NCBI GenBank assembly: GCA_964433555.1
Contig: CAYSRG010000005.1
Location: 10,141-74,140 of the forward strand
Reading direction: 5' to 3'
Length of the DNA: 64,000 nucleotides
From: an uncultured Atribacterota bacterium
GTDB taxonomy: Bacteria; Atribacterota; Phoenicimicrobiia; Phoenicimicrobiales; Stramentimicrobiaceae
A program made the position numbers and the translations under genes. The notes beneath the pieces were generated by a model. That model worked only from the letters and a program-made list of their open reading frames with translations. It searched no databases and was not told the origin of the DNA. Positions 19,507 to 22,885 of this stretch are shown here, piece after piece (the stretch's first letter is position 1; each line of letters opens with the position of its first letter).

Positions 19507-19580
19507 TGGCTGGGGTGGAAGGATTCGAACCTCCGATGAGGGAGCCAAAGTCCCTTGCCTTACCGCTTGGCTACACCCCA
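19507..19580 (-). tRNA. tRNA-Gln (anticodon TTG)
   Basis: Reverse complement folds as a 74-nt cloverleaf. Anticodon loop CUUUGGC gives UUG. Ends ACCCCAGCCA as in E. coli tRNA-Gln; CCA encoded. Confidence 0.85.
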
Positions 19581-19972: not shown

Positions 19973-20320
19973 TTATTGTTCGGATGATTCAGAATCATCT
20001 GAAAGCTCAGCGCTACTGCTCTTTACTTCATCATCTTTTGGAGATTCACTGCTTGCCTTATCTTCCTGCTCAGTTGCTTCGTATTCTTTTAATACAGCGG
20101 TCTGAATCATTTCTCTGACTTCTGTATTTATAGGATGAGCTATATCCTTATGATTTCCATTAGGCAAGAGTTTACTGGGCATTGCAACAAACATTCCCTT
20201 TCTTCCATCAATAATTCTCAAATCATGAACTACAAAGGAGTCATCAAAAGTAATAGAAACATACGCTCTCAGTTTTCCATCAGTCTGTATTCTTCTAATT
20301 CTAACATCAGTAACTTGCAC
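19973..20320 (-). CDS. spoVG: septation/regulatory protein SpoVG
   Basis: 115 aa. [11 protein letters not shown]...[22 protein letters not shown]...DIAHPIN is near-identical in pattern to Bacillus SpoVG. Acidic C-terminal tail. Confidence 0.9.
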
Positions 20321-20619
20321 TTGCTTACACCGCCTTTTCGTTTTTTGTTTTTTCTGTTATCTAGTTACTATTTACAATACCACACTTTAAAATTCAGTTA
20401 ATATCTAAGCTGATTACAAATAATATTTATTATTTTCCAACTTTCAACAAAATAATCTCCCACTGCTACATATTTTCATTTACCTCCTGTTATATCGCAT
20501 TTTAGTATGTAATATATCATCAATCCTAAAGTTAATAGCGTTGGGTTTTCTTGTTCCTTCAGATTCCCAAGAAGAATTTTTCTCCTTGAGAAGTCCTAAA
20601 TAGATCAGGCCTTTCTGTT

Positions 20620-20768
20620 AAAAAATAAACACAGCAAAAAATAATTGCTGTGCTGAAATTAATTCATATAACCAGCTTAGGAACTCTCCTACTCTTATTG
20701 TTGCAATCAATAACCTTTGTGCCATCATAAACTTATTAACTTTTTAAAGTCATTCCTTTTTCAGAGCT
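20620..20768 (-). ncRNA. candidate small RNA (sigma-A promoter + intrinsic terminator) between ksgA and spoVG
   Basis: Minus-strand TTGACA (20799-20804), 18 bp, TG-n-TAAAAT (20775-20780). Hairpin cacagcaa/ttgctgtg (20630-20652) followed on the minus strand by TTTATTTTTT. No ORF of 60 aa or more. Confidence 0.3.
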
Positions 20769-20774
20769 TGTCAA

Positions 20775-20804
20775 ATTTTATCATGCAAAATAGTTATTTG
20801 TCAA
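20775..20804 (-). promoter_or_regulatory. sigma-70/sigma-A-like promoter (extended -10)
   Basis: Reverse complement reads TTGACA-aataactattttgca-TGaTAAAAT. A second TTGACA overlaps the -10. Confidence 0.35.
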
Positions 20805-21062
20805 AAACTTTTTATTTTTTACAAATATTTAACAATTATAACTGGATTAGTTGTCAGTCATTTGTATTCAGTCATCAGATAGTTATTTGGTTTCTGATAT
20901 TTCGTTATTGGTTTTTGGTTAAGAATAATGAAACTACATTTTAAATTGCCAATACTTACTATTTACTCATTATATAATTAAAGCCTGGCTAAAATAATTA
21001 AGCAAATGAGGTCTAATTTAAACTGCTTAACTATCATGCTTTATTGCAGATTTCAACAAAAA

Positions 21063-21956
21063 CTAATTTATAATGTTTTTTATAGCTTTGGTAAGTTCCG
21101 GATATTCTTCTAAAGATAGAGTTTCTCCTCTTTGATTTGGATTAATTCCTGCTTCTTCTAATATTTTTTCCAGCATATACTTTTCCAGGCTTTTTCCAAA
21201 ATATAATTTAAGAGCATTAGCAAGACTTTTTCTTCTATGCTGAAAAATAGCACGAACTATATCAAAAAATAGATCTTCGTCTATCACTTTAATATTCGGT
21301 TTCTGTAAAAAATGTATTTTAATCAGCAAGGATTCTACTTCTGGTTTGGGGAAAAAAACATTAGGCTTTACCAGATGTAATTTATCAATCCTGGTATAAT
21401 AATTTGACATCACTGATAGTAGACCATAATTCTTACTTCCAGGTTTTGCTAACATGCGCTCGGCTACTTCCTTCTGTACCATTACTACTGCAATTTTCAA
21501 TAGGCTCCTCATATCCATTATCTTTCTCAATAAAGGGAGGGAGATGGAATAAGGTAGGTTTCCAACTAATTTTTCGATGTGATAGCCTTCCTGTTTTTTT
21601 AGGCTCAGAAAGTGAGCTAAATCAAAAGTTAAAATATCCTGATATAATACCGTAACAGAATTACTATATGGAGAGAGTAGGTCATCTAATATTGGTTTAA
21701 GACGGGTGTCTTTTTCAAAGGAAAAAACGTGTTGCACGGCAGGAATTAAGGCTAAAGTTAACGCGCCTAAACCGGTACCAATTTCCAATACCGCTTCCTT
21801 TTTTTGTAAGCTTAAAGATTTAACAATAATAGTGGTAATATTATAATCTATAAGGAAATTTTGTCCAAACTTTTTTAGGGGTCGAAATTCATATTTTATC
21901 ATATATTCCCTTATTTTTTTAAGAGAAAGGAAGGAAGTAGGCGGCGATATGGACAT
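21063..21956 (-). CDS. rsmA: 16S rRNA (adenine1518/1519-N6)-dimethyltransferase RsmA/KsgA
   Basis: 297 aa. KKFGQNFL motif, SAM-binding EIGTGLGALT. True start probably the internal Met (MIKYEF...). Confidence 0.85.
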   Translation of the reverse strand: MSISPPTSFLSLKKIREYMIKYEFRPLKKFGQNFLIDYNITTIIVKSLSLQKKEAVLEIGTGLGALTLALIPAVQHVFSFEKDTRLKPILDDLLSPYSNSVTVLYQDILTFDLAHFLSLKKQEGYHIEKLVGNLPYSISLPLLRKIMDMRSLLKIAVVMVQKEVAERMLAKPGSKNYGLLSVMSNYYTRIDKLHLVKPNVFFPKPEVESLLIKIHFLQKPNIKVIDEDLFFDIVRAIFQHRRKSLANALKLYFGKSLEKYMLEKILEEAGINPNQRGETLSLEEYPELTKAIKNIIN

Positions 21957-22279: not shown

Positions 22280-22885
22280 TTAATAAGATTAGTTTTTATA
22301 TTAACAAATAAGACAGCCTTGCTCTTTTTCTAACACCATCTTACTACCAAAATATTATCCTGAAAACACCTAATCTCTTCCTTTCTTACTTAAGGAAAAT
22401 TTGCTTTATAGATAAGGTGATTCAGGAAATAGCCTGACCATATTTTTTCTCTACGGTATAATACTTTACCATAAAATCGCTTTTTCTTCCATCTCTTGTT
22501 TTTTGCTAATCCATAAAATCTTCCTTCTTTAATTTCACTAAACAAAATAAGTTAAGATTGAGGAATTGTTCTTCAAATTCACAAAATTCAAATCCTCCGA
22601 AAGGTGCAGCAAGTATATTATAACAATGAGCCAGACTATAACTTCTTATTTCATTTTTCTTAATTTTTCTTAGTTTAGCTATAGCAGAGAGGAAGATAGG
22701 CTGAACCAAAATTGACTTTATCTTTACTATGGTCTGAACATACGCTGTCATAAGCTATTATAAATAGCTAAGACAACTAAAACTTCTTATCACAATATTC
22801 GCAAAAAGAAAGCTTTTATTAGCTTCTCTTTTTAATTAGAGTATTTCTGATGTTATTATGGTAGAAATTCTGAAGAACAAAATAA

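What the first reader, a model, noticed from the sequence alone, without database searches (positions are those of the whole stretch)
20620..20804. Candidate ~150-nt sRNA with strong promoter and terminator in the 740-bp ksgA-spoVG gap
On the minus strand there is a near-consensus promoter TTGACA-18-TGaTAAAAT. About 140 nt downstream is a stem-loop cacagcaa/ttgctgtg plus TTTATTTTTT. In Bacillus this position holds yabG/veg/sspF. Here no ORF of 60 aa or more exists. The only reading frame, a 41-codon hydrophobic ORF, runs through the terminator. It could alternatively be a terminated leader or attenuator for spoVG.
Basis: inference. Interest (0 to 1): 0.5.

Follow-up and report, generated by a model that had tools for sequence, protein, structure and literature searches.

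The report
Conserved spoVG leader RNA in Atribacterota
The promoter-plus-terminator pair is real and is kept in front of the spoVG regulator gene across the whole uncultured phylum Atribacterota; it most likely makes a short leader RNA that decides how much transcription continues into spoVG, rather than a free-standing small RNA.

Summary
A near-consensus promoter (TTGACA-18-TGaTAAAAT, 20804-20775, minus strand) is followed about 115 nt after the predicted start by a 10-bp hairpin plus U-run (20654-20620). The window comes from an Atribacterota metagenome contig, not a Firmicute.

In the window alone, such matches occur at chance frequency. Conservation is what makes the unit real:
- It is present once per locus, always upstream of and co-oriented with spoVG, in 87 metagenome loci from three deep clades.
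- Neutral sites in the flanking genes are saturated between these clades.
- The unit stays with spoVG when the upstream gene is not ksgA.

No Rfam family matches. The only consensus structure is the terminator, so this is not a riboswitch. A short ORF is kept in 22 of 24 lineages, with its stop 10-28 nt before the hairpin (2.7 expected). Its peptide is not conserved. In the window the ORF runs through the terminator. Two relatives from the other clades have no other sigma-70-like promoter before spoVG. A conserved SD-11 nt-AUG-stop block lies just beyond the terminator.

Best reading: a spoVG leader with a translation-coupled attenuator. A stand-alone sRNA is not excluded. It is a new member of a known kind, of moderate interest.

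The parts
20799..20804 (-). P1 -35 hexamer TTGACA, preceded by an A/T-rich tract at 20807-20820
   Evidence: Invariant in all three clades.
20775..20783 (-). P1 extended -10, TGaTAAAAT, with an 18-nt spacer after the -35 hexamer
   Evidence: The pattern is unique in the window, with 0 expected. In clade C the same promoter is a perfect 12/12 match plus TG.
20769..20774 (-). Second TTGACA overlapping the predicted transcription start. TTTGACAA repeats 30 bp apart. Role unknown.
   Evidence: Read from the sequence. Conserved in clades A and B.
20620..20768 (-). Predicted P1 transcript of about 150 nt: a largely unstructured, A-rich body followed by the terminator. The start at about 20768 is inferred from the -10 position.
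   Evidence: The length is 141-172 nt in all relatives. nhmmer E = 1e-23.
20618..20728 (-). Short upstream ORF of 36 codons (MMAQRLLIATIRVGEF...), with no Shine-Dalgarno sequence. In this organism it reads through the terminator and ends at TAA directly after the U-run.
   Evidence: Homologous ORFs end 10-28 nt before the hairpin in 22 of 24 lineages, against 2.7 expected. There is no codon periodicity and no Pfam or NCBIfam hit.
20620..20654 (-). Intrinsic terminator or attenuator: a 10-bp stem, a 7-nt loop and the U-run UAUUUUUU
   Evidence: It is the only consensus structure in the 22-sequence alignment, with C-G/U-G/U-A covariation. The variant CACAGCT/AGCTGTG also occurs.
20457..20510 (-). 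Conserved block C, outside the finding's coordinates. AGGAGG is at 20488-20483, then exactly 11 nt, then ATG (20471-20469) followed at once by TAG (20468-20466), a start-stop minimal ORF.
   Evidence: Present in 83 loci. The stop is TAG, TAA or TGA depending on lineage, and the 11-nt spacing is invariant.
20318..20334 (-). spoVG ribosome-binding site GGCGGTG, 7 nt, then the GTG start codon
   Evidence: Invariant across clades.
19973..20320 (-). spoVG (115 aa), the gene the unit is linked to
   Evidence: Pfam PF04026.
19507..19580 (-). tRNA-Gln(UUG) downstream of spoVG, followed by glmU and prs. Possibly part of the same transcription unit.
   Evidence: A tRNA sits at the same position in L092, L099 and L104.

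Best explanation
The region is the promoter-proximal part of the spoVG transcription unit of an Atribacterota bacterium. The strong promoter P1 starts a long leader of about 450 nt. About 115 nt after the start, transcription meets an efficient intrinsic terminator, so the roughly 150-nt RNA is the prematurely terminated leader. Polymerases that read through continue past a conserved SD-AUG-stop element into spoVG, and possibly into tRNA-Gln, glmU and prs.

The most likely control is translational. A short, sequence-unconstrained ORF in the leader places a ribosome at the foot of the terminator hairpin, or across it in this organism. That stops the lowest stem pairs from forming and favours read-through. 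When the ORF is not translated, termination prevails. This would be pyrBI- or ampC-like coupling of read-through to translation capacity.

Shown here: the anatomy, the conservation, the linkage to spoVG and the positional conservation of the ORF. Inferred: the transcription start, read-through, translation of the ORF and the direction of the effect.
For: Conservation:
- The promoter, transcript length (141-172 nt), terminator and block C are kept in three clades whose KsgA is only 45-73% identical to the window's.
- Four-fold sites are saturated.
- 87 of 119 promoter-pattern hits in metagenomes carry the terminator and 83 carry block C.

Linkage to spoVG:
- There is one copy per locus, always upstream of and co-oriented with spoVG.
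- There are none in 80 non-Atribacterota ksgA loci.
- In L160 the upstream gene is not ksgA but the unit is still in front of spoVG.
- A lineage whose ksgA is not followed by spoVG has no unit there.

Read-through needed:
- No sigma-70-like site scoring 9/12 or better lies between the terminator and spoVG in L104 (clade C) or L099 (clade B). P1 scores 11-12/12 plus TG.
- Only 25-40 nt separate the U-run from the SD-AUG-stop block in those clades.
- In clade C a 10-17 bp helix joins the sequence just 5' of the terminator to the sequence just 3' of the start-stop. The duplex z-score is about -3 to -4.3 in 7 of 8 representatives. It is kept by RNAalifold, and the whole domain has z = -4.6.

ORF:
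- An ATG/GTG ORF of 13 or more codons ends 10-28 nt before the hairpin in 22 of 24 lineages, against 2.7 expected from shuffles (positions).
- The two exceptions, the window and L096, read through the hairpin.
- Substitutions show no codon periodicity (20/19/18), as expected if the act of translation matters rather than the peptide.

Not a riboswitch:
- The terminator is the only consensus structure.
- The fold z-score is -1.
- No Rfam hit was found.
Against: - No expression data exist. The transcription start, read-through and ORF translation are all inferred.
- The terminator is strong (-10.5 to -16.9 kcal/mol with a good U-run), and no conserved antiterminator pairing exists. Unaided read-through may therefore be low.
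- The ORF has a Shine-Dalgarno sequence only in clade C. In the window and in clade B it has none, although this genome normally uses SD sequences.
- Promoter scans in AT-rich DNA are unreliable, so a non-consensus or alternative-sigma promoter downstream of the terminator cannot be excluded. The window has a non-conserved TTGAAA-16-TATTAT at 20447-20420.
- The bridging helix is not detectable in the window's own clade.
- A small ORF followed closely by a terminator is also what an ordinary small gene looks like.
Confidence: 0.45

Rival explanations
1. Stand-alone small RNA. P1 and the terminator define an abundant sRNA of about 150 nt with its own function. It might act in trans, or on the neighbouring spoVG mRNA, by pairing its 3' single-stranded segment with the ribosome-binding window of the SD-AUG-stop element. 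spoVG would then be transcribed from a separate, weak or non-consensus promoter.
For: - The unit has a strong promoter and a strong terminator with a U-tail.
- The body is unstructured and A-rich with a 3' hairpin, which is typical of chaperone-dependent sRNAs.
- The segment just 5' of the terminator is complementary to the start-stop region in clade C (z about -3 to -4.3) and to the SD itself in clade B. That pairing would work in trans as well as in cis.
- There is precedent for sRNA control of spoVG: SprX in S. aureus (PMC8383071).
Against: - The unit is never found away from spoVG, is never in another orientation and occurs once per locus.
- No conserved promoter for spoVG lies downstream of the terminator in L104 (clade C) or L099 (clade B).
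- There is no conserved seed across clades. The body outside the terminator is the least conserved part.
- The complementarity is absent in the window's clade.
- The clade B pairing is not better than shuffles.
Confidence: 0.25
2. Leader-attenuator as in the best explanation, but controlled by a protein rather than by the ORF, or simply acting as a constitutive partial terminator. An example of protein control would be SpoVG binding its own leader for autoregulation.
For: - The linkage and read-through arguments are the same as above.
- B. burgdorferi SpoVG binds the 5' end of its own mRNA with the highest affinity of the RNAs tested (PMC11086051).
- Short motifs resembling the terminator's 5' arm recur at the ORF start: GGCACA versus AGCACAGC in clades A and B, and GACAGUG versus CACAGUAG in clade C. 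These were read and could be protein sites.
- The ORF lacks an SD in two clades.
Against: - Nothing tested here identifies a protein site.
- The positional conservation of the ORF stop (22 of 24 against 2.7 expected) would be left unexplained.
Confidence: 0.15
3. Ordinary small-protein gene. P1, the short ORF and the terminator form a complete gene for a peptide of 13-43 aa. The hydrophobic window version could be a membrane peptide or a type I toxin.
For: - The ORF is present in all lineages, with the stop close to the terminator as in normal genes.
- Gene callers annotated 27-43 aa products in several metagenomes.
- Clade C has an SD 7-8 nt before the GTG start.
Against: - There is no codon periodicity of substitutions: 20/19/18 in clade C and 12/11/11 in clade A.
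- Length and character change completely between clades: hydrophobic in A, Lys/Gln-rich in B, Asn/Lys-rich in C.
- Frame shifts occur relative to conserved nucleotides.
- The ORF body is the least conserved part of the unit.
- No family hit was found.
- The window's version has no SD.
Confidence: 0.1
4. Chance juxtaposition of a promoter-like and a terminator-like sequence in AT-rich intergenic DNA, with no function.
For: Within the window, promoter-like and terminator-like matches occur at the frequency expected from shuffles.
Against: - Sequence and spacing are conserved phylum-wide despite saturated neutral sites.
- The stem shows compensatory changes.
Confidence: 0.01

Closest known systems
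Translation-coupled transcription attenuators without an antiterminator hairpin: the E. coli pyrBI leader and the ampC attenuator (recalled from the literature: Turnbough and colleagues; Jaurin et al. 1981; not re-read here)
   Same: - A strong promoter, a short leader ORF with an unimportant peptide, and an intrinsic terminator in the leader.
- A ribosome sitting on or next to the 5' arm would prevent hairpin completion.
- In the window the ORF runs through the terminator, as in pyrBI.
- A ribosome site with AUG followed directly by a stop occurs in the ampC leader, as in block C here.
   Different: - There is no sequence homology, and the phylum and the downstream gene differ.
- In most lineages the ORF stops 10-28 nt before the hairpin instead of crossing it.
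- The start-stop lies after the terminator, not before it.
- No U-rich pause-site logic has been shown.
- Nothing has been tested experimentally.
Classical leader-peptide attenuators (trp, his, leu, ilv)
   Same: A short ORF in a leader followed by a terminator upstream of the regulated gene.
   Different: - There are no runs of regulatory codons.
- There is no conserved 2:3 antiterminator alternative.
- The regulated gene is a nucleic-acid-binding regulator, not a biosynthetic operon.
sRNA control of spoVG in Firmicutes (S. aureus SprX; PMC8383071) and SpoVG binding to its own 5' mRNA (B. burgdorferi; PMC11086051)
   Same: spoVG expression is controlled post-transcriptionally through its 5' region. 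An RNA partner or the protein itself acts on the leader.
   Different: - SprX is encoded elsewhere and is unrelated in sequence.
- No binding data exist for Atribacterota.
- Here the RNA is encoded in cis, immediately upstream.
Start-stop minimal ORFs (E. coli yecJ and hslR; bioRxiv 10.1101/520783)
   Same: An SD-like sequence is followed by AUG and an immediate stop, with a proposed regulatory role for ribosome occupancy.
   Different: - Here it sits in a 5' leader, is conserved across a phylum and has a fixed 11-nt SD spacing. That spacing is slightly longer than the genome's usual 7-10 nt.
- The E. coli cases lie inside genes.
Terminated riboswitch leaders that double as sRNAs (for example Listeria SreA/SreB; recalled, not re-read)
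   Same: A short terminated leader RNA made from a strong promoter could also act in trans.
   Different: No aptamer-like conserved structure is present.

Membership tests
Any Rfam 15 family | Covariance-model score at or above the family's gathering threshold | tested here: not met
   Only tRNAs were found in the window at gathering threshold. The best sub-threshold hits in 20200-21200 score 24.6 bits against a threshold of 100 (manA-II, driven by the terminator). Nothing was found in the leaders of L092, L099 or L104.
Sigma-70/sigma-A promoter with extended -10 | TTGACA and TATAAT-like hexamers 16-18 bp apart, with TG one base upstream of the -10 | tested here: met
   11 of 12 matches plus TG in the window. 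12 of 12 plus TG in L104. The hexamers are invariant in 87 loci, but that set was retrieved with a pattern containing them, so this is partly by construction. Activity was not tested.
Intrinsic (Rho-independent) terminator | A G+C-containing stem, a short loop and a U-run immediately 3' | tested here: met
   The energy is -13.3 kcal/mol.
Intrinsic (Rho-independent) terminator | Pairing maintained by compensatory change in relatives | tested here: met
   All 11 pairs are kept in 22 sequences. One pair varies C-G, U-G and U-A. CACAGCT/AGCTGTG occurs in L125 and L163.
Ribosome-mediated (leader-ORF) transcription attenuator | A short ORF in the leader that ends at or overlaps the terminator | tested here: met
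   22 of 24 lineages have the stop 10-28 nt before the stem, against 2.7 expected. The window and L096 read through the stem.
Ribosome-mediated (leader-ORF) transcription attenuator | A functional ribosome-binding site on the leader ORF | tested here: inconclusive
   AAGGA/AGGGA lies 7-8 nt before the GTG in clade C. No SD is present in the window or in clade B.
Ribosome-mediated (leader-ORF) transcription attenuator | Regulatory codon runs and an alternative antiterminator hairpin (trp/his type) | tested here: not met
   There are no codon runs. There is no conserved pairing to the terminator's 5' arm, with z between -1.9 and +0.9. This feature is not required for the pyrBI type.
Ribosome-mediated (leader-ORF) transcription attenuator | Read-through transcript continues into the regulated gene, and read-through depends on translation | not testable with these tools
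   No expression data are available. Only indirect support exists.
Riboswitch or structured cis-regulatory leader | A conserved ligand-binding structure with covariation upstream of the expression platform | tested here: not met
   RNAalifold finds only the terminator. The single-sequence fold has z = -1.
Trans-acting base-pairing sRNA | Own promoter and own terminator giving a discrete RNA | tested here: inconclusive
   The signals are present. A discrete RNA cannot be shown without expression data.
Trans-acting base-pairing sRNA | A conserved single-stranded seed complementary to targets | tested here: inconclusive
   Complementarity to the start-stop region is significant in clade C, not significant in clade B and absent in the window's clade.
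Type I toxin or small membrane protein gene | A peptide under purifying selection with a conserved hydrophobic segment | tested here: not met
   There is no codon periodicity. The peptides are hydrophobic only in clade A. No family hits were found.
Bacillus occupants of this position (YabG, Veg, SspF) | An ORF with similarity to these proteins | tested here: not met
   There is no minus-strand ORF over 36 aa in the gap. The peptides have no Pfam or NCBIfam match.
Start-stop minimal ORF (block C, outside the finding) | An SD, then a start codon immediately followed by a stop | tested here: met
   AGGAGG, 11 nt, then ATG-TAG at 20488-20466. The stop varies TAG/TAA/TGA in 83 loci. Ribosome occupancy is not testable here.

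The most novel reading that the evidence does not exclude
This would be a phylum-specific, two-stage translation-capacity sensor in front of the global regulator SpoVG.
- Stage 1: a ribosome on a peptide-irrelevant leader ORF blocks the foot of an intrinsic terminator.
- Stage 2: a conserved SD-AUG-stop minimal ORF beyond the terminator is masked by long-range pairing with the pre-terminator segment. It is unmasked by the same ribosome, and then stabilises or licenses the long leader.

Together these would tie spoVG, tRNA-Gln, glmU and prs to ribosome availability. The terminated 150-nt RNA might also feed back in trans on the same site.
Probability: 0.15. Interest if true: 0.65.

Novelty: new member of a known kind. 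Interest (0 to 1): 0.45.

Why it matters
Atribacterota (OP9/JS1) are abundant in subsurface sediments and anaerobic digesters but are almost uncultured, and I know of no regulatory RNA described for them.

This unit is one of the most conserved non-coding sequences that could be seen in the phylum here. It sits in front of spoVG, a pleiotropic DNA- and RNA-binding regulator whose own control is poorly understood outside a few Firmicutes and Borrelia.

If the leader-attenuator reading holds, it gives a directly testable handle on how these slow-growing organisms couple a global regulator, and perhaps tRNA-Gln, UDP-GlcNAc and PRPP synthesis, to translational status. It would also add a conserved natural example of a 5'-leader start-stop ORF.

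The promoter is also a ready-made strong consensus promoter for genetic tools in the phylum.

Tried and rejected
- **Rfam.** Searches at gathering and permissive thresholds on the window and three relatives found nothing.
- **Riboswitch or structured RNA.** Rejected, because only the terminator is a consensus structure.
- **Antiterminator.** A search for pairing against the terminator's 5' arm found no conserved partner.
- **Coding test of the short ORF.** There is no three-base periodicity in clade C or clade A, and only a weak hint in clade B (4/7/12 on very few sites). Pfam and NCBIfam gave no hit apart from one spurious sub-threshold Hexapep match.
- **Gln-codon attenuation linked to the downstream tRNA-Gln.** Gln is frequent in clade B peptides, and CAG-CAA lies in the terminator arm in the window's frame. 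It is absent in clade C and in several clade A members, and A-rich composition explains it. Dropped.
- **Sigma-H-type promoter reading of block C.** The pattern AGGAnnT-14-GAAT fits only clade C. Dropped.
- **Second promoter between terminator and spoVG.** Several -10-like AT-rich motifs exist (TACTnAAAT, TATAAC), but none is consistent in position across clades. No site reaches 9/12 in L104 (clade C) or L099 (clade B). Unresolved rather than rejected.
- **Whole-body duplex search between the transcript and the downstream leader.** Uninformative long AU pairings.
- **Genome-collection scan with KsgA.** It returned only distant relatives (44% identity or less) from other phyla, so it was useless for synteny. 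It did serve as a negative set for the nhmmer search.
- **Script artefact.** In some searches some loci were silently skipped, because alignment records with the same names overwrote them. One search repeats the ORF test correctly.

Full report
**What is in the window.** On the minus strand the gene order is dnaB, four tRNAs, ksgA (21063-21956), a 742-bp gap, spoVG (19973-20320, GTG start), tRNA-Gln (19507-19580), glmU and prs.
- TTGACA at 20804-20799, an 18-nt spacer, and TGaTAAAAT at 20783-20775.
- A hairpin AGCACAGCAA/TTGCTGTGTT at 20654-20628, followed by TATTTTTT to 20620. Its energy is -13.3 kcal/mol.

The only minus-strand ORF has 36 codons, not 41. It runs from 20728 to 20618, lacks a Shine-Dalgarno sequence, crosses the hairpin and stops at the TAA that ends the U-run. 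In this AT-rich DNA such promoter-like and terminator-like matches are as frequent as in shuffled sequence. The window alone therefore does not prove anything.

**Whose genome it is.** KsgA homologues that carry a source name are called Atribacterota. The best match among species-representative genomes is only 44% identical. The identical locus occurs on several digester metagenome contigs. The Bacillus comparison (yabG/veg/sspF) is therefore not applicable. No such ORFs are present, and the short peptides hit no Pfam or NCBIfam family.

**Conservation.** I took contigs encoding KsgA proteins 46-73% identical to the window's, sampled without regard to the intergenic sequence.
- Seven KsgA lineages have the same architecture between ksgA and spoVG (sequences).
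- One further lineage has ksgA without spoVG downstream and has no element.
- A metagenome scan with the promoter pattern returned 119 loci. Of these, 87 have the terminator at the same distance and 83 have a further conserved block. The rest are unrelated promoter look-alikes.
- Three clades emerge. Clade A includes the window. Clade B has KsgA about 60% identical, and clade C has 44-50%.
- Four-fold degenerate sites of ksgA are only 30-47% identical between the window and these relatives, which means saturation (spoVG: 31-67%). The promoter, the first ~25 nt of the transcript, the terminator and block C remain almost invariant.
- A profile HMM of the transcript finds exactly one copy per locus (window 20767-20620, E = 1e-23). 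It finds none in 80 ksgA loci from other phyla.
- In L160 the upstream gene is an unrelated 346-aa protein, and the element still precedes spoVG.

The unit is therefore real, single-copy, phylum-specific and tied to spoVG rather than to ksgA.

**What kind of RNA.**
- No Rfam family matches in the window or in relatives.
- The predicted transcript is 141-172 nt in all lineages.
- RNAalifold on 22 sequences from the three clades predicts only the terminator hairpin. One of its pairs varies C-G, U-G and U-A. A further variant, CACAGCT/AGCTGTG, occurs in L125 and L163.
- The body is A-rich and unstructured, with a fold z-score of -1. A riboswitch-type aptamer is excluded.
- No upstream segment conservedly pairs with the terminator's 5' arm. 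A classical antiterminator is absent too.

**The short ORF.** Every lineage has an ATG (clades A and B) or an SD-preceded GTG (clade C) at the same place in the transcript. Examples of the encoded peptides:
- MMAQRLLIATIRVGEF... in clade A.
- MKAQKILKAQK... in clade B.
- MLTNNIAENKDRYNLLRKEKYKY in clade C.

The peptides are unrelated in character. Substitutions show no codon periodicity: 20/19/18 in clade C and 12/11/11 in clade A. The ORF body is the least conserved part of the unit. Even so, in 22 of 24 diverse representatives an ORF of 13 or more codons stops 10-28 nt before the hairpin, against 2.7 expected from shuffles. The two exceptions, the window and L096, read through the hairpin.

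That pattern means the position is conserved but the peptide is not. It is what is expected of a regulatory leader ORF. A ribosome at such a stop reaches about to the foot of the stem, whose lowest pairs are the ones needed for termination. This last step is inference from general knowledge of ribosome footprints and terminator mechanics.

**Beyond the terminator.** A second invariant block lies 25-40 nt downstream of the U-run in clades B and C, and 125 nt downstream in the window. It consists of [A/G]GGAGGT, exactly 11 nt, then ATG followed at once by a stop. The stop is TAG in clade A, TAG or TAA in clade B and TGA in clade C. In the window it is at 20488-20466. The genome uses GGAGG sites with 7-10 nt spacing, so 11 nt is slightly long.

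In clade C the segment just 5' of the terminator (UUAUUCCAGA) pairs with the segment just 3' of the start-stop (UCUGGAGUAA).
- The duplex z-score is about -3 to -4.3 in 7 of 8 representatives, including divergent ones.
- RNAalifold keeps this helix stacked on the terminator.
- The whole domain folds with z = -4.6.

In clade B the same position (GGUACUCCU) is complementary to the SD itself, but no better than shuffles. In the window's clade I found no such pairing.

**Leader or sRNA.** The consensus scan finds no sigma-70-like site of 9/12 or better between the terminator and spoVG in L104 (clade C) or L099 (clade B). P1 is 11-12/12 with an extended -10. The window has one non-conserved candidate at 20447-20420.

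RNA-level features therefore begin 25-40 nt after the U-run with no recognisable promoter to make them. A helix bridges the terminator. The linkage to spoVG is absolute. Together these favour one transcription unit in which the terminator is an attenuator and the 150-nt RNA is its terminated product.

The same complementarity would equally serve an sRNA acting on a separately transcribed spoVG leader, and promoter prediction in AT-rich DNA is weak. That rival therefore stays at about 0.25. There is precedent for both kinds of control of spoVG. The SprX sRNA represses it in S. aureus (PMC8383071). Borrelia SpoVG binds the 5' end of its own mRNA best among the RNAs tested (PMC11086051). Start-stop ORFs that bind ribosomes have been shown in E. 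coli (bioRxiv 10.1101/520783). No paper in the library mentions spoVG together with Atribacteria.

**Verdict.** It is not in Rfam, and I found no paper linking spoVG and Atribacteria. It is best filed as a new, phylum-specific spoVG leader with an intrinsic attenuator and a positionally conserved leader ORF. The free-standing sRNA reading is still possible. Nothing about it is categorically new, but the conserved leader ORF, terminator and start-stop arrangement in an almost unstudied phylum is worth an expression check.

Noticed in passing
window 20457-20510 (minus strand): Invariant block with AGGAGG (20488-20483), then exactly 11 nt, then ATG-TAG (20471-20466). This is a start-stop minimal ORF conserved in 83 loci. 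The stop codon changes between TAG, TAA and TGA by lineage.
   Followed up: partly
L134, L104, L111, L179, L151, L160 and others (clade C), from about 15 nt 5' of the terminator to about 5 nt 3' of the start-stop: A long-range 10-17 bp helix (UUAUUCCAGA with UCUGGAGUAA) encloses the terminator and the SD-start-stop. The duplex z-score is about -3 to -4.3. An alternative fold pairs the terminator's 5' arm with the start-stop itself. Neither is seen in the window's clade.
   Followed up: partly
window 19507-19580 (minus strand): tRNA-Gln(UUG) lies directly downstream of spoVG and before glmU-prs. A tRNA sits at the same position in L092, L099 and L104. No canonical terminator was detected between spoVG and the tRNA, so they may be co-transcribed from P1.
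   Followed up: partly
window 20769-20774 and 20799-20806 (minus strand): TTTGACAA occurs twice, 30 bp apart. The second copy overlaps the predicted transcription start. It is conserved in clades A and B. It could be an operator or a polymerase-contact element.
   Followed up: no
window 20991-21030 (minus strand): An AT-rich hairpin TTAAGCA...TGCTTAA followed by TTATTTT sits just after the ksgA stop. It is probably the ksgA terminator. It accounts for the weak sub-threshold Rfam hit SpF01_sRNA.
   Followed up: no
window 20520-20617 (minus strand): About 100 nt between the terminator and block C are specific to this species. Relatives have 25-40 nt here. This stretch contains local hairpins such as TTCTTCTTGGGAATCTGAAGGAA.
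   Followed up: no
L133, between the terminator and block C: An insertion of about 330 nt carries two copies of a unit that includes AGAGGGGTTTCAGGGGATACCTCCCCTGA. It may be a small mobile or repeat element. The insertion leaves the terminator and block C intact.
   Followed up: no
window 20717-20944 (plus strand): A 75-aa TTG-initiated ORF lies antisense to the promoter region. It is low-complexity, and most of it lies in sequence with no apparent similarity among relatives. It is probably spurious.
   Followed up: partly
window 22506-22751 (minus strand): An 81-aa ORF between the tRNA cluster and tRNA-Thr is called as a gene in metagenome annotations and has no Pfam hit.
   Followed up: no
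L096, L099, L228 (upstream of ksgA): In several relatives an AbiEi/AbiEii toxin-antitoxin pair lies upstream of ksgA, where the window has dnaB and the tRNA cluster.
   Followed up: no
window 20318-20345 (minus strand): The spoVG translation start region A-rich-AAAGGCGGTG-N7-GTG is invariant across all three clades. It includes an unusual interrupted SD (GGCGGTG) and a GTG start.
   Followed up: no
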